IMG/VR virus record: IMGVR_UViG_3300037628_000362
Coordinates: 12,697-76,696 of that record
DNA from: a virus
Direction: 5' to 3' (one strand)
Length of the DNA stretch: 64,000 bases
In this document: positions 7,545 to 41,325 of the stretch, piece by piece
Layout: the number at the start of each line of letters is the position of its first letter
How positions within the stretch are numbered: the first letter of the stretch is position 1
The notes under the pieces: generated by a model
What the model saw: only the letters and a program-made list of their open reading frames with translations
The model's database searches: none
Told to the model about the DNA's origin: nothing
Position numbers and translations under genes: made by a program

Positions 7545-8243
7545 ATGTCCTCACCACATGGAATTCTGAAACGACTGCACACCGAGAAAGTCGGCTACAA
7601 GCAACTCGACCCTGGCGACGCTGGAACTATTCAGCCCGATCGCCAGTTCTCATACTTTCCCGTCGTAAGCGGGGCGTCGGGCCAGACCCTCACGCTGGCG
7701 GATCCGGACTTTGCTGGCCAGGTCACAACTGTCGCCATGAAGACCGATGGCGGCGGTGACATTACAATCACAGCCGACTCGGCCTTCGATCAGGTCGGCA
7801 ATACCTCGATTGTGCTAGGTGACGTAGGGGACTCGATTACCCTTGTCGGCATCGAGGACGGCTCAGACCTGGAATGGCGGACTCTGGCACAGCACGGCAT
7901 CGCTATTTCCGTACTGGGATTCACTCTCGACGATGGTGAGAATATCGCCGTTGGCACGTCTACTGGCACTGAGATTGGCACTGCGGCTGCACAGAAGATC
8001 GGCTTCCATGGGGCGACGCCGGTGATCCAAGCTTCAGCAATGACGGCCGGACATGCGACGGTCACTCAAGCCGGGACTGATAGCGGCGACGTGGCGATCC
8101 AGGCCGCGGTGCAGAATACGGGATACGGGTTTGTTGATGCGGCCGAATTCGAGGCGATTGTTGCGATGGTAAGAAATAATAACGTACGGATGCTAGAGGT
8201 AGAGAATATCCTGGAAGGTAAAGGATTCGTCGCGGCAAACTAA
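7545..8243 (+). CDS. Putative capsid decoration/fibre protein
   Basis: SD AAGGAA; GTxTGTxIGTAAxQKIGFHGATPV motif common in phage virion proteins. Confidence 0.6.
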   Translation: MSSPHGILKRLHTEKVGYKQLDPGDAGTIQPDRQFSYFPVVSGASGQTLTLADPDFAGQVTTVAMKTDGGGDITITADSAFDQVGNTSIVLGDVGDSITLVGIEDGSDLEWRTLAQHGIAISVLGFTLDDGENIAVGTSTGTEIGTAAAQKIGFHGATPVIQASAMTAGHATVTQAGTDSGDVAIQAAVQNTGYGFVDAAEFEAIVAMVRNNNVRMLEVENILEGKGFVAAN

Positions 8244-15383: not shown

Positions 15384-15965
15384 ATGACGCATCTCTTCGA
15401 GAAACTGCCACTCATCGCTGACACGAAGGTTGACGTGAAGGTGCGCCGGTTCATCGCTGTCCTGCGCCAGGCTATCATCGATGGGGATTTACTTGATGAA
15501 GATGTCACGTACACCGCCGGCGGAATGATTCTCGGCGGGCTTACGGCGGGAGAACTGGTCACATCTGATAGCTCAGGAAAACTGATTTCATCGGACACAG
15601 ACGAGGTTATCGACGATCGGGTGTCTGCGTTAATTCAGGACGGAACGGGCATTACGTGGACTTATGTAGATGCGTCAGACTCCCTAACGGCTGACTTACA
15701 ATCCGCGACGACGGCAACTCTCGGCGGCATTCGGAAAGGGGATGCAGTCGATGATTCTGAGCAATCCGCGATAACGCTGACTGCTGTTACTGATCCTGCC
15801 GACACTCCGGCGTCTGCGGATGCACTGCGGGACGATCTGGTGGCCAATACGATTCCTGACCTCAAGACCAGGGACACTGAACTGGAAACCGCGATTGAGA
15901 CGTTGGCCGGAGAAGTTAACGATCTCCTGTTTGAACTCCGCAGCGGCGGGATTCTGAGTACGTAA
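15384..15965 (+). CDS. Short fibre-like virion protein
   Basis: IDDRVSALIQDGTGITWTYVDA and ATTATLGGIRKG motifs of phage fibres. Confidence 0.6.
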   Translation: MTHLFEKLPLIADTKVDVKVRRFIAVLRQAIIDGDLLDEDVTYTAGGMILGGLTAGELVTSDSSGKLISSDTDEVIDDRVSALIQDGTGITWTYVDASDSLTADLQSATTATLGGIRKGDAVDDSEQSAITLTAVTDPADTPASADALRDDLVANTIPDLKTRDTELETAIETLAGEVNDLLFELRSGGILST

Positions 15966-15982
15966 ACACGAGGGAGTCAATA

Positions 15983-17158
15983 ATGCCGATCACGATCAAG
16001 CACGGGGCCGACCCGGCTCTCCTTGGTAGCCTCGCCTATAGGACAGGCCAGTCTAAGGCCACCACTCAGGGACATGACCAACGCAGCCGTCAGTTCACTG
16101 ACCTGGCGAACATCATCAACCAGACCGTCGAGGGCCGCTCTCGTCGGCAGTACCGCGAGGGTATTCAGGAACGTCAGGACCGGCAGTTCCAATACGGGGT
16201 TTACCGGGACGCGATGGGTCGTGAAGATAAAGAGCGGGCGCGGCAAGACCTGTTCACGAAGGAATCAAACAAGATGTCCGGGGCCCAGTTAAGTGAAATC
16301 TCCGGCCAACTCGCACAGGCCCAGATGTCTGATCGTAAAGACGCCGACAACTGGCGTGCCCGGCTTAAACAACTCAGGGCGACTGCCCTTACTCCAGGGC
16401 AGCTCCGTGAAGGTTACGCCACACTGGCCACCGATCTTGAACGCCTCGGGATCATGCAGCAGATCATCAAGCCATTAACTAAAGACCAGAAATTCGACCA
16501 GACCGTCGTAGAAAGGGATGGAAGACAGTTTGCATTAGGCATGCGCAATGGCGAGCAGACCGTTACGCTGATCCCAGACCCGAAGACCGAGAAGGACGAT
16601 GAATTCCTGAAGGCATTTGAAATAATCCTCAGGCAAAAGGAGCTGGGCTTAAAGGACGGCGAAGTTCTCAATTACGGCGCCGCAGCCAAGGAAACTGCCG
16701 CACTTATGAGGGCAATGGCTATGTTCAAGGAAAGCCTCAAAGGTGGCGTGGAGTCCCAGTCGGCGGCGATCCCGATGCTCAATACGTTATTCCCGAACCT
16801 AGATCAGGCACCGGTAGGCGTGCCGTCGCCGATAATGCCAGATGGCCAAGCTCCGTCGCCACCTGCTACTCAACAGCAGCAAATCGGCCCCCGCCGTGCA
16901 ACGATCAAGAAGAAGCCGGGCGTCCCAGAAGAAATCTCACGGCTTGGAATGTGGAAGAAACGTCTCGATAAGATGTCAGCAAAGATTGCCAAACCGATCG
17001 CGGAAATGAACGTAAAGGAAAAGAAGACATTACGTTCCGACTTAGATATGTTCTTGCGTGAGATAATGGAGTCGGAAGAGGCCGTACAATTAAGCGCAGA
17101 GGAAATGGAGTTAGCCGAGCAAGTCATGGCAATCTATAAGCAGGCGGGGGATCTATAA
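15983..17158 (+). CDS. Putative internal virion/ejection protein
   Basis: Helical, charged; lies between ejection-type genes; SD GAGGGAG. Confidence 0.55.
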   Translation: MPITIKHGADPALLGSLAYRTGQSKATTQGHDQRSRQFTDLANIINQTVEGRSRRQYREGIQERQDRQFQYGVYRDAMGREDKERARQDLFTKESNKMSGAQLSEISGQLAQAQMSDRKDADNWRARLKQLRATALTPGQLREGYATLATDLERLGIMQQIIKPLTKDQKFDQTVVERDGRQFALGMRNGEQTVTLIPDPKTEKDDEFLKAFEIILRQKELGLKDGEVLNYGAAAKETAALMRAMAMFKESLKGGVESQSAAIPMLNTLFPNLDQAPVGVPSPIMPDGQAPSPPATQQQQIGPRRATIKKKPGVPEEISRLGMWKKRLDKMSAKIAKPIAEMNVKEKKTLRSDLDMFLREIMESEEAVQLSAEEMELAEQVMAIYKQAGDL

Positions 17159-37681: not shown

Positions 37682-37931
37682 AACCGGCGTAATGGTAATG
37701 AAAGACGGGAAGGCGTGGGGGATCGTCTACGAAGATGGCCAAAGTGCCTGCTCTGGATGGATTGATGTTGAATCAGCTCCGATTCACGATCCGAAATACT
37801 GCAAGAAGACAACCGACGTTACCTTTGAGCACAGTCACCACACGACGGAGTTGGAAACGGCAAAACTTGTTGAAGTAAAAAGGATAACGACCGTGGAAAT
37901 TCTCGAACAGAACGATGAGGGAAGTAGCTAA
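37671..37931 (+). CDS. Hypothetical protein
   Basis: SD GGAGG; coupled to the recombinase gene. Confidence 0.55.
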   Translation: MKIETGVMVMKDGKAWGIVYEDGQSACSGWIDVESAPIHDPKYCKKTTDVTFEHSHHTTELETAKLVEVKRITTVEILEQNDEGSS

Positions 37932-38533
37932 TGCCTAGCTTCACCCAATACATGACGCTCAATGAGATCCACACGGTCCTAGAAGACCTCCGCCTGCGGT
38001 CTATCTGGAGCGTATCGTCGGCCGTCAACCGGATCATCGTGCGGCTCTCGCTCGGCGCTGGGCTCCGCTGCATGGAAATCGTTGGCCTCAATGTAGGTGA
38101 TCTCGTTCTCGGTGGAAGTTGCCCGGTCATCAACGTACGTGGCGAGACAGCGAAGGGCGGCAAGCCGAGAAAGGTGCCCTTGTTCTGGGACCGGCAGACA
38201 CTTGCCGACCTGGCTAACTGGCAACGGCACCGCACTGAGGTCATGGGTGCCACGCGTGGAGATCCATTCGTTTGCGGAGTCTGCCAGACAAATCGAGGTG
38301 GCCGGCTGATACGGTCGATGGCGGCAAAGCGATGGAAGACAGCGATTAAGTGTCTGGGGACCGATCGGGTGTCTCAACTGTCGATCCACTGCGGCCGGCA
38401 CAGCTTTGCCTCGCACGCCGTTCGAGCTGGTCGTACACCGGCAGAGTTACGCGACGCCCTGGGCCACGCGAATATCACCACCACTGAAACCTACCTGCAC
38501 TCGATCCCGACTGAGTGTGGGGATTTATTCTGA
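37931..38533 (+). CDS. Tyrosine recombinase (catalytic domain only)
   Basis: R (GLRCME), K (AKGGK), HxxR (HCGRHSF), LGH, Y (TETYLH). Confidence 0.9.
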   Translation: MPSFTQYMTLNEIHTVLEDLRLRSIWSVSSAVNRIIVRLSLGAGLRCMEIVGLNVGDLVLGGSCPVINVRGETAKGGKPRKVPLFWDRQTLADLANWQRHRTEVMGATRGDPFVCGVCQTNRGGRLIRSMAAKRWKTAIKCLGTDRVSQLSIHCGRHSFASHAVRAGRTPAELRDALGHANITTTETYLHSIPTECGDLF

Positions 38534-38545
38534 AGGAGAATCGAT

Positions 38546-39013
38546 ATGAGCGAGAATGACCGGAGTTATTTTGCCACACCACTGGCCGACGTTCCGCCGG
38601 CAATAAATAGCACGTCCTGGTACCCTCCTGTTCACATGGAATCCGGCGACACACAACAGCAGTTCTCGACCGGCGCCGTACGCGACCAGGTAGAAGACAA
38701 GCCTCGGCCTGATCTGATCTCGCCATTCGCAGAAGAGCGGCTAGGTGAGTGGTTGCGCCTCGGCGCAATTAAGTATTCCGAGCGTAATTGGGAAAAGGGG
38801 ATTCCGAACGCTAGGTGCTTCGCGTCATTGAAGCGCCATGTAATGTGGTTCAATCAGGGGGACACGAAAGAAGATCACCTGGCAGCCATTATTTTCAACG
38901 CAATGGCGATCATTCATAATCAAGAGATGATCGATCGTGGAGTCCTGCCGGCGGAACTAGACGACATGCCGAGGTATGTCACGGTCACAGAAGGTTGCGA
39001 GACGCTCAGGTGA
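38546..39013 (+). CDS. dATP/dGTP diphosphohydrolase domain protein (DUF5664-type)
   Basis: FSTGAVRD...KPRPDLI...GAIKYSERNWEKG...SLKRH...EDHLAAIIFNA. Confidence 0.85.
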   Translation: MSENDRSYFATPLADVPPAINSTSWYPPVHMESGDTQQQFSTGAVRDQVEDKPRPDLISPFAEERLGEWLRLGAIKYSERNWEKGIPNARCFASLKRHVMWFNQGDTKEDHLAAIIFNAMAIIHNQEMIDRGVLPAELDDMPRYVTVTEGCETLR

Positions 39014-39307
39014 ATCTATAACCCACTGAGCTTTTGCCTTATATACAGTCGTCAAGCCATTTTCTCGCGAAATTGTGAAATAAGTTCCGTATTTACTCCA
39101 AGTCAGGCTACCCACTTCCTTACGGACTTCAGGCTCCGCGTCATTCGTGACCCAAATCGGTGGCCACGGCTCGGGCTCAGGTCGGCAGACGGGCTTCGTG
39201 ATTGTAATGACGATGAAGTCTCCATGGTCGACGACTTCGTATTCATCTGCCCCAAAGACAGACTCGTCATCATCCTGATTGGTTATTGAAATACGGTACT
39301 TACTCAT
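38957..39307 (-). CDS. Hypothetical protein
   Basis: SD GGAGA after the T-run that ends the upstream RNA. Confidence 0.5.
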   Translation of the reverse strand: MSKYRISITNQDDDESVFGADEYEVVDHGDFIVITITKPVCRPEPEPWPPIWVTNDAEPEVRKEVGSLTWSKYGTYFTISRENGLTTVYKAKAQWVIDSPERLATFCDRDIPRHVV

Positions 39308-39349
39308 TTGCGTGTCTCCAGAAAAAAACGAATGGCGTCAGGGTGGTGG

Positions 39350-39433
39350 TTAGTCGGAATTCTCTTAGTCGGGCTTAGTGATTCGGGTATTCGGATTAGT
39401 CGGATATGAGTGGTTCTGAATTCGGGTATTCGG
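39350..39433 (-). repeat. Array of ~7-8 nt CCGA(A/C)T(A) repeats
   Basis: On +: TTAGTCGG x3, ATTCGGGTATTCGG x2, plus degenerate units. Confidence 0.8.
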
Positions 39434-39467
39434 AGTTCCCCGGCCGTTTAGTGTCCGCCCGGACGAC

Positions 39468-39542
39468 TGGCTTTCGATACTGGATTTGAACCAGTAACAT
39501 CAAGATTGATATTCTTGCGCTCTACCACTGAGCTAATCGAAA
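39468..39542 (-). tRNA. tRNA with anticodon ATC (Asp-like), CCA encoded
   Basis: TTTCGAT/ATCGAAA acceptor, GCTC-AGTGGTA-GAGC D-arm, CAAGA-ATATCAA-TCTTG anticodon arm, ACTGG-TTCAAAT-CCAGT T-arm, G73, CCA. Confidence 0.85.
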
Positions 39543-39634
39543 AAAAACGCAACGGTGAAACCGGTTACACCTACGGCTTTGGGTGCCGTGCGAACCCTTC
39601 ACCCTACGCACGCCATTCTGTATTCTCGGACTCC

Positions 39635-39976
39635 TTATGCTGTGGCCTCAATCTTAGCCTGGGCCTCAACCTTAGCCTGGGCCTCATAAAAATCTGTCGT
39701 CACGATATCTCCAACGTCGATCACCGTTCTCCAGTTGGCCTGTTGGATCGCGGAGTCGACCATCCTCAGTCGCTTGGCGCAGTAGTCGTACTCGCGAGTC
39801 ACTTGCGAGAGTGTCAGCTTCGGAACCTGGGCGACAACGTCATCGATCCCATCTTCAACACGCTGTCGCCTGGCCTTGACCTCGAACAGATCCCGGTCTT
39901 TGATGCTACCGATCTGATCGACCTTTTTCTGAAGTTCCTTGCGTATTAGCAAAGCTTCAGCCAATTTGACATTCAT
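39635..39976 (-). CDS. DIP1984-like coiled-coil protein
   Basis: KLAEALLIRKELQKKV...VDSAIQQANW termini characteristic of the DIP1984 family; SD GAGGAG. Confidence 0.7.
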   Translation of the reverse strand: MNVKLAEALLIRKELQKKVDQIGSIKDRDLFEVKARRQRVEDGIDDVVAQVPKLTLSQVTREYDYCAKRLRMVDSAIQQANWRTVIDVGDIVTTDFYEAQAKVEAQAKIEATA

Positions 39977-40053
39977 CGGGATACTCCTCTATTGGCAGGG
40001 TAATGCGCCGGTAGTATCACCCCTGAGTGGTTATTATGGCGTTCCGGCGCCGC

Positions 40054-40293
40054 CTATGCGGCCTTACGTGGCCGACGTGATTTGAGACGATCGAGGGGAG
40101 CAAAAGCGCCCTCTATGATCTTGGCCTTGAGTGGCTTACATCCGTACTGAGCCATGTACACCAGCACGGATGCTAGGCTTTTTGGATTGACATGGCCGCG
40201 GTGTCGATGCTGCTGGACCGTGTTGACTGTTTGCCCTGTCAAGCGGGCAATTTCACGGTAGTTGTAACCGAATTCGCTGGCATCCCGCGACAT
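40054..40293 (-). CDS. HTH DNA-binding protein
   Basis: YNYREIARLTGQTVNTVQQH; SD GAGGAG. Confidence 0.65.
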   Translation of the reverse strand: MSRDASEFGYNYREIARLTGQTVNTVQQHRHRGHVNPKSLASVLVYMAQYGCKPLKAKIIEGAFAPLDRLKSRRPRKAA

Positions 40294-40351
40294 GTTATCT
40301 CCTCGAAAGAGTTGTGATATTACTATCATCGCCAGTATGACACCGTGTAGT

Positions 40352-40615
40352 TCACTTTTTTTGTTCGCCTTCGACCGGTAATTGGGGCACAGCGGTGTCG
40401 GGTTTCGGCCCGGAAACCGCTGCTATGACATTACCACCCCGATCGACCCACATATCGCTCTCCTGGCCGGCTCCAGGAATGTAGTTGACGTATTCGCCTC
40501 GTCTCCGCCTGATAGTCACTTCCCCAGGGATCATCCTGGCGCCCTTTGCGAGATCGACAGCGTCTTCACTGTCACCTCCGAGCGCTATTGCCATTATCGC
40601 GAGAGGGTCAAGCAT
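40352..40615 (-). CDS. Hypothetical protein
   Basis: SD AAGGA. Confidence 0.5.
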   Translation of the reverse strand: MLDPLAIMAIALGGDSEDAVDLAKGARMIPGEVTIRRRRGEYVNYIPGAGQESDMWVDRGGNVIAAVSGPKPDTAVPQLPVEGEQKK

Positions 40616-40701
40616 GCTTCTTTCCTTCCGTAAGTGTAAGTAAGTAGAACCAGGACAGCGCTGGCAGGCGTGACTCCCGCCAGCGCTGGGTCCGATCCTA
40701 C

Positions 40702-41325
40702 TTACTCTCCAACCGGAGGTAAAGGACGAACACTTTTGCCGACCGCCTCACCAACAGGAGGCAATCTGGTGACAGAGAGGTCGGCAGAGTCAATCGGAAC
40801 AAGGTACGCAGCAGTAGTCGGCTTCGGAATCCGACGCGGGCCGTCCAGCCGCTTTAGGATGGCGTCGAGGGTCTTTTCCAGGTCTCGCAGTTTGCGTTCC
40901 TCGGGCGTCTCATTAGCGGCAGGGGAGCCACATTTCTTCTGCTCCGGCGCCCGCTTGGCCGTCTCGGCATAGGCGTGAGTCGATGCGGACAGATGAATCC
41001 GCGGCGTTGTCTCAAATGGCGTAAGTCCAGGGAGCTTGAGTGACGGCAGCCCAAATCGAATCTCGGGAATCACCACCTCGGCCCCGGCGATTCCCCAGCC
41101 CCTAGTCGGCCCTTCGATCTCACCGTAACGGGCTGCCGGGATGTCGAAAGTTTTGGCCTCACGCTTTTTTGGCTCGGCCTTTTTCTTGCTCTTGACGGCG
41201 CATCCACAAGTAGCTGCCGGACGATCGCAAGACTGCTTGTGCTTCAGCCAAGCGAACCACTCGGCCCCGGCGCGCCCGGTCAATAGCAGGACCGCCGCGG
41301 CAGTGAAAAGGATCGTTCGTTTCAT
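40702..41325 (-). CDS. Secreted protein with signal peptide, Cys/Pro-rich
   Basis: MKRTILFTAAAVLLLTGRAGA; SD GGAGG. Confidence 0.6.
   Translation of the reverse strand: MKRTILFTAAAVLLLTGRAGAEWFAWLKHKQSCDRPAATCGCAVKSKKKAEPKKREAKTFDIPAARYGEIEGPTRGWGIAGAEVVIPEIRFGLPSLKLPGLTPFETTPRIHLSASTHAYAETAKRAPEQKKCGSPAANETPEERKLRDLEKTLDAILKRLDGPRRIPKPTTAAYLVPIDSADLSVTRLPPVGEAVGKSVRPLPPVGE

What the first reader, a model, noticed from the sequence alone, without database searches (positions are those of the whole stretch)
39330..39976. DIP1984-like gene plus a nested ~290-nt RNA enclosing a whole tRNA and a CCGA(A/C)UA repeat array: candidate protein-RNA system
Seen: directly after the stop of the DIP1984-like coiled-coil gene (39635..39976, -), the transcript reads GAATGGCGT-GCGT-AGGGTG (39618-39600). 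This pairs with CACCCT-G-ACGCCATTC (39345-39330), which is followed by a 7-U run. Inside the closing stem are three parts. First, a GGGT/ACCC hairpin. Second, a long inner stem GCCGT-A-GGTGT-AA-CCGG ... CCGG-GCGG-ACACT-AA-ACGGC whose tip carries a complete CCA-ended tRNA (39542-39468). Third, an A/C-rich tract of about 10 short units (CCGACUAA x3, CCGAAUACCCGAAU x2, degenerate others) at 39433-39350. Knowledge: DIP1984-family proteins have no established function. Periodic single-stranded repeats are how ring-shaped RNA binders such as TRAP and Hfq are engaged. Large phage ncRNAs such as GOLLD are tRNA-associated. Inference: the protein oligomerises on the repeat tract of its cognate RNA (toxin-antitoxin-like, autoregulatory or scaffold RNP). 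RNase P/3' processing or host anticodon-nuclease cleavage of the embedded tRNA would open the RNA and could act as a switch or sensor.
Basis: partly seen in the sequence, partly recalled or inferred. Interest (0 to 1): 0.9.

Follow-up and report, generated by a model that had tools for sequence, protein, structure and literature searches.

The report
Phage protein with partner structured RNA
Right behind a small gene of unknown function, this marine-sediment phage encodes a conserved, knotted ~290-base non-coding RNA with a row of evenly spaced short units and an exchangeable tRNA inside. The same gene-plus-RNA pair recurs in dozens of unrelated phages, so it is probably an undescribed protein-RNA particle whose job is still unknown.

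Summary
On the minus strand a 113-aa DIP1984/DUF6847-like gene (39976-39635) is followed by a closed RNA (39618-39322). Its parts are a 9+6-bp end-to-end stem followed by U7, a 5' domain with an H-type pseudoknot, a complete tRNA(AUC), a hairpin, and a 94-nt tract.

Comparative data give 58 non-redundant relatives from phages of 30-62% GC. In them the closing stem, the pseudoknot and hairpin P3 are kept by compensatory changes. The tract has a fixed length, no supported pairing, and a CCGA/GA core about every 7.6 nt (about 12 slots).

Gene and RNA are linked in 71 of 78 viral loci, and in three loci the RNA comes before the gene. The tRNA is a variable insert: 19 canonical tRNAs of many anticodons, 13 permuted YrlA-like mimics, 7 with a T arm only, 19 with none. 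The closest relative has none.

The protein is half of the DIP1984 fold and must dimerise. Canonical bacterial DIP1984 genes also carry their own downstream closed RNA.

No Rfam family or paper describes this element. VIPR and Y RNA are analogues, not relatives. This scan has already noted the same pair on more than 60 other genomes. Binding and function remain untested.

The parts
39635..39976 (-). Gene for a 113-aa DIP1984/DUF6847-like protein (helix, beta hairpin, helix). It corresponds to one half of the DIP1984 fold.
   Evidence: ORF. PF20935 27.7 bits and NF038048 35.9 bits. AF2 model. The tandem relatives superpose on 3KDQ.
39322..39618 (-). Whole structured RNA, from the first base of the closing stem to the end of the U run (about 297 nt).
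39610..39618 (-). P1a 5' arm, GAAUGGCGU. It starts 16 nt after the stop codon.
   Evidence: Read from the sequence. Inverted repeat I1. Cognate versus non-cognate duplex energies across 58 RNAs.
39600..39609 (-). Conserved GCGU internal loop (39609-39606) and P1b 5' arm AGGGUG (39605-39600).
   Evidence: GCGU is conserved in alignment A2. The P1b partner is CACCCU at 39345-39340.
39548..39609 (-). 5' domain. P2 is GGGU 39597-39594 with ACCC 39584-39581. The pseudoknot pairs loop ACGGC 39589-39585 with GCCGU 39577-39573. P3 is GGUG 39571-39568 with CACC 39557-39554. It ends with the conserved CGUUGCG.
   Evidence: CM R1 match of 50.1 bits, E 8e-12. Covariation counts on 40 sequences.
39468..39542 (-). 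Complete cloverleaf tRNA with encoded CCA and the atypical anticodon AUC. It is a lineage-specific insert in the variable middle region.
   Evidence: ARAGORN. Rfam tRNA 66.7 bits. Absent from the closest relative L122. The module varies across the family.
39439..39463 (-). P4 hairpin (UCCGG 39463-39459 with CCGGG 39443-39439) immediately before the tract.
   Evidence: Local folds of 57 relatives place a hairpin at the same position with different sequences.
39346..39439 (-). Fixed-length periodic tract. It runs GGAACUCCGAAUA ... UCCGACUAACCA, carries 8 CCGA cores here, and has a family period of about 7.6 nt (about 12 slots). It has no supported internal pairing.
   Evidence: nhmmer 51.3 bits, E 5e-15. 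RNAalifold predicts nothing. The trial helices fail. Lattice and periodogram tests.
39330..39345 (-). P1b 3' arm CACCCU (39345-39340), bulged G (39339) and P1a 3' arm ACGCCAUUC (39338-39330).
39322..39328 (-). U7 run after the closing stem. It probably marks the 3' end or terminator of the RNA.
   Evidence: Read from the sequence. Many relatives also have a U run after P1. The consensus terminator scan does not call it, because the loop is about 270 nt.

Best explanation
This is a self-contained two-part module: a small DIP1984-family protein and its cognate ~290-nt structured RNA, which together most likely form a ribonucleoprotein particle.

The RNA is closed by a long stem joining its two ends. 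That stem also places a U run at the 3' end. Inside are:
- a pseudoknotted 5' 'handle' (P2, pseudoknot, P3, CGUUGCA);
- a permissive middle region;
- a hairpin (P4);
- a fixed-length, unpaired tract of about 95 nt with a CCGA/GA core every ~7.6 nt.

The protein, acting as dimers that recreate the DIP1984 fold, is inferred to line up on this periodic tract.

The tRNA(AUC) in this phage is a passenger inserted in the permissive region. It is probably cut out by the host's normal tRNA processing, while the closing stem could keep the two RNA halves together.

Shown: conservation, covariation, periodicity, synteny, the variable nature of the tRNA, and the fold relationship of the protein.

Inferred: protein-RNA binding, stoichiometry and processing.

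The particle's biological role is unknown. The early/replication-region context and the near-exclusive phage distribution suggest a role in taking over the host or in conflict with it.
For: 1. Family-wide RNA structure. On 40 sequences the pseudoknot is 83.5% paired with compensatory changes at 5 of 5 pairs. P3 is 86% paired with 6 of 6. The covariation score is 0.62, against 0.22 for shuffles (0 of 500 reach it) and at most 0.16 for slid partners. Many G-U pairs fit only this strand as RNA.
2. Closing stem. Cognate flanks pair at a mean of -38.4 kcal/mol, against -22.0 +/- 5.8 for non-cognate flanks, with unrelated sequences in each phage.
3. Tract.
- It is 93-97 nt in about 80 loci with almost no indels.
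- No consensus pairing is predicted.
- CCGA positions fit a 7.65-nt lattice (3 of 300 random sets do as well). GA cores give a 7.6-nt periodogram peak (7 of 500 shuffles).
- Between phages with identical proteins the tract is only 58% identical, while the stem and the 5' domain are 87-90% identical. Only the cores and the length are constrained.
4. Linkage.
- 71 of 78 viral loci with the gene carry at least one RNA domain, and 61 carry both.
- Every genuine hit of a protein-independent DNA pattern scan whose upstream sequence was available had the gene next to it.
- In L012, L123 and L073 the RNA lies upstream of the gene, so it is not merely a 3' UTR.
- No other neighbouring gene is constant.
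5. Protein.
- About a third of the 418 family representatives are tandem duplications.
- The tandem form folds at pLDDT 95, and its only PDB match at E <= 0.001 is the DIP1984 structure 3KDQ (E 5e-5, TM 0.76).
- Invariant residues are rich in R, K, N, Q and W.
6. Canonical 150-aa DIP1984 genes in bacteria also have their own downstream closed RNA, with a covarying long-range stem and a T-arm-like hairpin.
Against: - No binding, expression or processing data exist for this RNA.
- The protein has no recognised RNA-binding domain. As a monomer it looks like a generic helical hairpin.
- The periodicity statistics are moderate (p about 0.01), and the occupied slots differ among phages.
- Tight synteny could also arise from co-transcription alone.
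- The RNA could work without the protein, as other large phage RNAs are thought to do.
Confidence: 0.55

Rival explanations
1. The RNA is an autonomous 'ornate' phage RNA, in the manner of GOLLD or ROOL. It works without the DIP1984-like protein, and the gene is simply co-transcribed or regulated by it (3' end formation, stability or autoregulation).
For: The RNA has strong structure of its own. P1 followed by a U run resembles a 3' end or terminator in this window and in many relatives. The protein has no known RNA-binding fold. Like GOLLD and ROOL (own knowledge), it is phage-borne and often sits among tRNA genes.
Against: The gene-RNA order is reversed in three lineages with linkage kept. 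The largest conserved region is an unpaired, fixed-length periodic tract, which is unusual for a self-folding RNA. Bacterial DIP1984 genes keep a different RNA next to them.
Confidence: 0.2
2. A VIPR-like guide complex. Protein protomers hold the fixed CCGA/GA cores, and the bases between them read a nucleic-acid target in a non-contiguous code.
For: VIPR systems are phage-encoded. They pair one small protein with an RNA of 9-16 short repeats plus a pseudoknotted invariable part (bioRxiv 10.64898/2026.04.26.720920). Here the inter-core positions diverge about as fast as synonymous sites, while the cores, the length and the handle are kept.
Against: The protein is a helical DIP1984 fold, not an RRM/RAMP. 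The unit is 7.6 nt, not 5 nt. Several whole units (AAYUCCGAMUA, UCCGACUAACCA) are conserved across very distant phages, which is unlike a programmable guide. No target search was made.
Confidence: 0.08
3. Cleavage or processing of the embedded tRNA opens the RNA and releases or activates the protein, in a toxin-antitoxin-like or anticodon-nuclease-sensing way.
For: In this window the tRNA is complete and sits inside the closed RNA. tRNA or tRNA-like modules are present in 39 of 58 relatives.
Against: 19 of 58 RNAs have no tRNA signature, including the closest relative L122. 13 have a permuted mimic without an anticodon loop. Anticodons differ widely. The inner stem around the tRNA is not conserved. 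There is no sign of toxicity-type domains.
Confidence: 0.07
4. A Y-RNA-like tether or decoy. The scaffold presents a tRNA or tRNA mimic to a host tRNA-binding enzyme or nuclease, while the protein occupies the tract.
For: The permuted modules score 28-37 bits on Rfam YrlA, whose gathering score is 69. The bacterial DIP1984-linked RNA always carries a T-arm-like hairpin. Structural neighbours of the monomer include the tRNA-binding coiled-coil arm of seryl-tRNA synthetase, at TM 0.58-0.59, a weak and generic match.
Against: A third of the phage RNAs lack any tRNA-like part. There is no Ro60/TROVE gene in this virus record.
Confidence: 0.07
5. A DNA-level element (iterons, arm sites or an attachment site next to the integrase-like gene) rather than an RNA.
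For: Short repeats lie about 0.8 kb from a tyrosine-recombinase-like ORF. An unrelated phage has CGACTAAC iterons in both orientations (L091 and L099).
Against: The helices covary with frequent G-U pairs, which would be A-C mismatches on the other strand. The repeats are all in one orientation. The element follows the DIP1984-like gene, not integrases, in other phages.
Confidence: 0.03

Closest known systems
DIP1984 family / Pfam DUF6847 (crystal structure 3KDQ, Corynebacterium diphtheriae; function unknown)
   Same: The N-terminal KLAEAL..R..L helix and the C-terminal LRL.D..IQQ.NW helix are shared. Pfam scores just above its cut-off. The tandem phage-type form superposes on 3KDQ (E 5e-5, TM 0.76).
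   Different: The window protein is a single ~100-aa unit, about half of the fold. It scores below the NCBIfam cut-off (35.9 against 70). No function is known for any member, so membership explains nothing about mechanism.
VIPR systems (Vipr protein plus vrRNA; bioRxiv 10.64898/2026.04.26.720920 and 10.64898/2026.04.26.720927)
   Same: Both are phage-encoded minimal loci. Each has one small protein and a neighbouring RNA with about 10 short evenly spaced units plus a conserved pseudoknotted part. In VIPR the protomers oligomerise along the repeats.
   Different: Vipr is an RRM/RAMP protein, while this one is a helical DIP1984 fold. The VIPR repeat is GGY/NN with a 5-nt period, while this one is a CCGA/GA core with a 7.6-nt period. 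This RNA is closed end to end and carries a tRNA site. Several of its units are conserved across phages rather than hypervariable.
Bacterial Y RNA / YrlA (Rfam RF02553) with Ro60
   Same: Both RNAs have their 5' and 3' ends paired in a long stem. In 13 of 58 relatives a permuted tRNA mimic (T arm, closed acceptor, D arm) is attached through its anticodon stem.
   Different: Scores reach only 28-37 bits against a gathering score of 69, and there is no YrlA hit in the window. There is no TROVE gene. YrlA has no pseudoknot handle or periodic tract. The window carries a true tRNA, not a mimic.
GOLLD and ROOL large phage RNAs
   Same: They are phage-borne structured RNAs of unknown function, often beside or around tRNA genes (own knowledge of Weinberg et al. 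2009 and 2017). Here tRNAs lie inside the RNA and, in several relatives, directly after it.
   Different: No Rfam match at E <= 10. This RNA is much smaller (220-370 nt) and has an obligate neighbouring protein gene.
TRAP on the trp leader; Csr/Rsm sponge RNAs
   Same: Both use regularly spaced short single-stranded motifs as a platform for a multimeric protein (established knowledge).
   Different: The motif, period, protein fold and genomic logic all differ. This is a resemblance only.
RAGATH-27 (Rfam RF03100), named by earlier notes of this scan for other subfamilies
   Same: Earlier agents report that it covers the first 86 nt of related RNAs elsewhere (not checked by me).
   Different: There is no match in this window, its whole virus record, 34 related loci, phage T5 or Vibrio phage PS32B.1.

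Membership tests
DIP1984 / DUF6847 protein family | Profile score above the curated cut-off | tested here: inconclusive
   Pfam PF20935 scores 27.7 bits against a cut-off of 27, which is just met. NCBIfam NF038048 scores 35.9 bits against 70, which is not met.
DIP1984 / DUF6847 protein family | Same three-dimensional fold as 3KDQ | tested here: met
   The monomer model gives only a weak match (prob 0.72, TM 0.44). The tandem relative P0001 (pLDDT 95) matches 3KDQ at E 5e-5, prob 1.0, TM 0.76, and nothing else in the PDB reaches E <= 0.001.
tRNA | Cloverleaf scoring above the Rfam gathering score, with acceptor end | tested here: met
   RF00005 scores 66.7 bits against 29. ARAGORN calls it. CCA is encoded.
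tRNA | Anticodon and identity set of a normal bacterial decoder | tested here: not met
   The anticodon is AUC, with A32, A34 and A38. Bacterial tRNA-Asp uses GUC (established knowledge). GAU and GAC are both common codons in the window (449 and 554).
YrlA / Y RNA | Covariance-model score of at least 69 bits | tested here: not met
   There is no hit in the window at E <= 10. Relatives score 28-37 bits.
YrlA / Y RNA | Ro60 (TROVE) partner gene | tested here: not met
   PF05731 is absent from the 76.7-kb virus record, which is 77% complete.
VIPR | Vipr protein with RRM/RAMP fold | tested here: not met
   The models are a helical hairpin plus beta hairpin with the DIP1984 fold.
VIPR | vrRNA of 9-16 GGY/NN units (5-nt period) | tested here: not met
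   The core is CCGA/GA and the period is 7.6 nt.
RAGATH-27 (RF03100) | Covariance-model match | tested here: not met
   No match at E <= 1 in G000, T5 or PS32B.1. It does not appear in any cmscan of the window or of 34 loci.
Type III toxin-antitoxin (ToxIN-like) | Tandem, near-identical ~34-36-nt RNA repeats upstream of an endoribonuclease toxin gene | tested here: not met
   The units are 7-8 nt and degenerate. The RNA is usually downstream. The protein has no nuclease family match.
Intrinsic terminator | Short GC-rich hairpin (loop of 3-8 nt) followed by a U run | tested here: not met
   The scan finds none in 38900-40800. The U7 run follows a stem whose 'loop' is about 270 nt, so termination by P1 is an inference.

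The most novel reading that the evidence does not exclude
DIP1984-family proteins and their neighbouring closed RNAs may form a widespread and so far unrecognised class of ribonucleoprotein particles in phages and bacteria. In this class, dimers of a helical-hairpin protein would polymerise in a 7.6-nt register on a GA-core tract, capped by a pseudoknot handle. A permissive loop would display exchangeable tRNAs or tRNA mimics. The particle could act as a new kind of sequence-reading or tRNA-presenting machine in phage-host or phage-phage conflict, with a logic parallel to VIPR and CRISPR but an unrelated origin.
Probability: 0.15. Interest if true: 0.9.

Novelty: categorically new. Interest (0 to 1): 0.8.

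Why it matters
DIP1984/DUF6847 is a solved-structure protein family with no known function. Linking it to a dedicated, strongly covarying RNA partner, in phages and separately in bacteria, gives the first concrete and testable functional hypothesis: that it is the protein half of an RNP.

The RNA is absent from Rfam 15. Its design is unusual: an end-to-end closure, a pseudoknot handle, a length-locked periodic single-stranded tract, and a docking site that accepts whole tRNAs, permuted tRNA mimics or nothing.

After VIPR, a second and unrelated pair of a small protein with a short-repeat RNA in phages would suggest that such particles are a general viral strategy.

Cultured relatives exist (Vibrio phages PS32B.x on Vibrio crassostreae), so the question can be tested directly.

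Tried and rejected
- **Known RNA families.** Rfam 15 at permissive thresholds on the window and 34 related loci gave only tRNA and sub-threshold YrlA. RAGATH-27, suggested by earlier scan notes, gave no match in the window, its virus record, T5 or PS32B.1.
- **Phage T5.** The A3 protein profile finds no homologue in AY543070. T5.067, T5.081 and T5.058 have no DUF6847 match. T5's annotated stable RNAs could not be tied to this family here.
- **Tract hairpins.** Two hairpins that I saw by eye inside the tract (P5, P6) were rejected: 52% paired, the same as shuffles.
- **Pattern-only scan of viral contigs.** About half of the 35 hits were chance matches in coding DNA, or an unrelated iteron array.
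- **Ro60/TROVE partner.** None found.
- **Constant neighbouring genes.** None. The neighbours are DnaB, RecT, Gp157, ParB-N, PadR and portal genes.
- **Fold searches with the monomer model.** Only generic helical hairpins and prefoldin-like topology.
- **Expression.** No RNA holder is listed for this stretch. The only run is a marine-sediment DNA metagenome that may be the source.
- **Other literature.** The 8-nt-period TAGTC arrays of bioRxiv 10.64898/2026.10.21.760802 are a different element: inverted arrays, Chloroflexota, no protein partner. Searches for DUF6847 and DIP1984 returned no paper, and 'septicolysin' returned only plasmid annotation mentions.
Full report
**Source.** The window is part of a 76.7-kb IMG/VR virus record with a CheckV completeness estimate of 77%. 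The only public run that holds the stretch is a marine-sediment DNA metagenome.

**1.

Read on the minus strand, the region contains the following.
- A 113-aa ORF at 39976-39635. It matches Pfam DUF6847 at 27.7 bits (cut-off 27) and NCBIfam DIP1984 at 35.9 bits (cut-off 70).
- Sixteen bases after the stop codon, GAAUGGCGU-GCGU-AGGGUG (39618-39600). It pairs with CACCCU-G-ACGCCAUUC (39345-39330), which is followed by U7. The minimum-free-energy fold contains this closing stem.
- The fold energy of the whole RNA is unremarkable on its own (z = -1.13).
- ARAGORN and Rfam both call a complete tRNA at 39542-39468, with CCA encoded and anticodon AUC, at 66.7 bits.
- The repeats are real: TTAGTCGG three times and ATTCGGGTATTCGGA twice on the plus strand. 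Six of the 32 minus-strand CCGAHUW heptamers in the whole window lie within 100 nt.

**2. Comparative evidence shows a conserved RNA**

- A profile scan of IMG/VR found 78 loci encoding relatives of the protein, in phages with 30-62% GC.
- In almost all of them a long-range stem begins a few bases after the stop codon and closes 220-370 nt later. The stem sequence is different in every lineage.
- Using 58 non-redundant RNAs, cognate 5' and 3' flanks pair at a mean of -38.4 kcal/mol. Non-cognate combinations pair at -22.0 +/- 5.8.
- Just inside the stem lies a conserved 60-nt domain. In order it has GCGU, the P1b strand, hairpin P2 whose loop pairs with the bases after UAAA (an H-type pseudoknot), UAG, hairpin P3, and CGUUGCA.
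- On a 40-sequence alignment the pseudoknot is 83.5% paired, with compensatory changes at all five pairs. P3 is 86% paired, with changes at all six pairs.
- The covariation score is 0.62. Shuffles give 0.22 (0 of 500 reach the observed value), and slid partners give at most 0.16.
- The many G-U pairs fit only an RNA transcribed from this strand.
- A covariance model of this domain (R1) finds the window at 50.1 bits, and finds 65 of the 78 viral loci.
- A hairpin (P4) sits at a constant position before the 3' tract, with different stem sequences in different phages.

**3. The 3' tract**

- The tract aligns across phages almost without gaps. A profile of it finds 80 of about 95 targets, nearly always 93-97 nt long.
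- RNAalifold predicts no consensus pair. Two hairpins that I proposed by eye failed the pair count, at 52% paired, the same as shuffles.
- CCGA occupies columns 7, 15, 37, 45, 61, 68 and 83. These fit a lattice of 7.65 nt, and only 3 of 300 random sets fit as well.
- The more general GA core peaks every 7.6 nt, giving about 12 slots. Only 7 of 500 column shuffles reach that periodogram power.
- Two phages with identical proteins (L020 and L021) are 84% identical in the gene, 87-90% in the stem arms and the 5' domain, but only 58% in the tract. Selection therefore holds the cores and the length, not the bases between them.
- This is what a register-keeping, single-stranded platform for a multimer would look like. 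It is not proof of one.

**4. The tRNA is an exchangeable insert**

- Between the 5' domain and P4 the family has 52-227 nt.
- Of the 58 RNAs:
  - 19 carry a canonical tRNA (Ile GAU/AAU/UAU, Asn, Arg CCU/UCU, Ser, Gln, Leu, Phe, Asp AUC, and one UUA);
  - 13 carry a circularly permuted mimic (T arm, acceptor hairpin closed by a small loop, D arm);
  - 7 carry a T arm only;
  - 19 carry no tRNA signature.
- The permuted modules score 28-37 bits on Rfam YrlA, below its gathering score of 69.
- The closest relative of the window protein (L122, 71% identity, in a Hyphomicrobiaceae MAG contig) has only 67 nt here and no tRNA.
- The window's tRNA(AUC) is therefore a lineage-specific passenger.
- The 'long inner stem' is likewise not conserved. 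Its 5' strand is the pseudoknot strand plus P3.

**5. Gene and RNA travel together**

- 71 of 78 viral loci have at least one RNA domain within about 1.5 kb, and 61 have both.
- The exceptions are truncated contigs or divergent members that still show closing stems or CCGA units.
- A protein-independent DNA pattern scan recovered genuine RNAs only next to the gene. Its other hits were chance matches in coding DNA, plus one unrelated iteron array.
- In L012, L123 and L073 the RNA lies immediately upstream of the gene, with no second gene copy. In a few other loci an extra ORF intervenes. The RNA is thus not simply a 3' UTR.
- Flanking genes vary: DnaB, RecT, Gp157, ParB-N, PadR and portal genes, and in the window an integrase-like ORF, a dATP/dGTP diphosphohydrolase domain and an HTH protein.
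- In bacterial genomes the pair is rare and spread over many phyla: 11 loci in 185,579 species. This fits carriage by phages.
- Cultured carriers are Vibrio phages PS32B.x and 1.264.O. In PS32B.1 (Zobellviridae), the one record I inspected, the RNA lies in an unannotated 300-nt gap and matches the two RNA profiles only weakly.

**6. The protein**

- The monomer model (pLDDT 76) is helix, beta hairpin, helix. Structure searches return only generic helical hairpins, prefoldin beta, and weakly 3KDQ.
- An exhaustive profile search finds 418 cluster representatives. About a third are 200-230-aa tandem duplications.
- Such a tandem protein folds at pLDDT 95.4. Its only PDB match at E <= 0.001 is the DIP1984 crystal structure 3KDQ (E 5e-5, probability 1.0, TM 0.76).
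- The 100-aa phage unit is therefore half of the DIP1984 fold and should act as a dimer.
- Invariant residues include R12, K13, R37, R71, Q78, N81 and W82. They are compatible with nucleic-acid contact, but this is inference only.

**7. A parallel in bacteria**

- Canonical 150-aa DIP1984 genes, found in 7 of 112 genomes of the class containing the Desulfosporosinus hit, are each followed by a conserved ~180-nt element.
- That element has a long-range closing stem with compensatory changes, a T-arm-like GGUUCGAnUCC hairpin, and a conserved 3' GUGAGGGYGGGUAWGGGG.
- It matches neither of my two models nor any Rfam family.
- Coupling between a DIP1984-family gene and a closed RNA thus extends beyond this phage subfamily. 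This strengthens the partnership reading.

**8. Comparison with what is known**

- No Rfam 15 family matches. No paper mentions DUF6847 or DIP1984 in this sense.
- Earlier notes of this scan record the same pair on more than 60 other genomes. They name RAGATH-27 and VIPR as the nearest known things.
- I could not reproduce RAGATH-27 for this subfamily or for T5.
- VIPR is a functional analogue: a small phage protein filament on a short-repeat RNA with a pseudoknotted constant part. Its protein fold, unit and period all differ.
- Y RNA/YrlA shares the end-paired stem and, in some relatives, the permuted tRNA mimic. It lacks the tract and handle, and no Ro60 gene is present here.

**9. Verdict**

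- The best reading (about 0.55) is a cognate RNP. Protein dimers are arrayed on the periodic tract of a closed, pseudoknot-capped RNA, and the RNA's permissive loop has here captured a tRNA.
- The rivals are an autonomous RNA, a VIPR-like guide, a tRNA switch, a Y-RNA-like tether and a DNA element. They are ranked in the Rival explanations section.

Noticed in passing
L140-L146 (bacterial genomes G008-G097), about 20-240 nt after the stop codon of canonical DIP1984 genes: Canonical 150-aa DIP1984 genes in Desulfosporosinus-class bacteria are followed by their own conserved closed RNA. It has a covarying long-range stem, a T-arm-like GGUUCGAnUCC hairpin and a conserved 3' GUGAGGGYGGGUAWGGGG, followed in several of the loci by a terminator-like hairpin. 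It has no Rfam match and no similarity to the phage RNA models.
   Followed up: partly
P0001 and about 40 other representatives; L084:1501-2187: About a third of the phage-type protein family are tandem duplications (200-230 aa). They fold as a compact pseudo-dimer that superposes on the DIP1984 crystal structure.
   Followed up: yes
L012, L123, L073: In three lineages the RNA lies immediately upstream of the gene instead of downstream. In L029/L033, L032, L062, L071 and L044 the RNA starts 200-1000 nt after the gene, so further sequence (in L032 a small ORF) lies between them.
   Followed up: partly
L091 and L099 (IMG/VR contigs 3300017726_002884 and 3300017749_000372): A dense array of (C)CGACTAAC units in both orientations lies in an intergenic region. 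It looks like DNA iterons and is unrelated to the RNA, although it shares the CGACUA core.
   Followed up: no
window 39468-39542: The embedded tRNA has A32, A34 and A38 and anticodon AUC, with an A/U-rich acceptor stem. Several relatives also carry A34 anticodons (AAU, AUG) or UUA. Whether these tRNAs decode at all is open.
   Followed up: partly
L134 (phage T5, AY543070) 7839-8084 and 15849-16567: T5's annotated 'stable RNAs of unknown function' (RNA2, which is tRNA-like, RNAIV and the 719-nt RNAX) lie in its tRNA region downstream of small ORFs. None matched my protein profile, my RNA model or RAGATH-27.
   Followed up: partly
L084:586-855: A group I intron-like match (46.2 bits, just under the gathering score of 50) lies upstream of the tandem DIP1984-like gene in a 170-kb phage contig.
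   Followed up: no
window 37931-38533 and 38546-39013 (+): A 200-aa tyrosine-recombinase catalytic domain without an N-terminal arm-binding part, then a dATP/dGTP diphosphohydrolase N-domain ORF. The second converges on, and overlaps by about 57 nt, the 116-aa ORF that follows the RNA.
   Followed up: no
PMC10690425 (candidate structured RNAs in viruses): [quoted passage not shown] That pattern is what a piece of this RNA family would give. I did not verify it.
   Followed up: no
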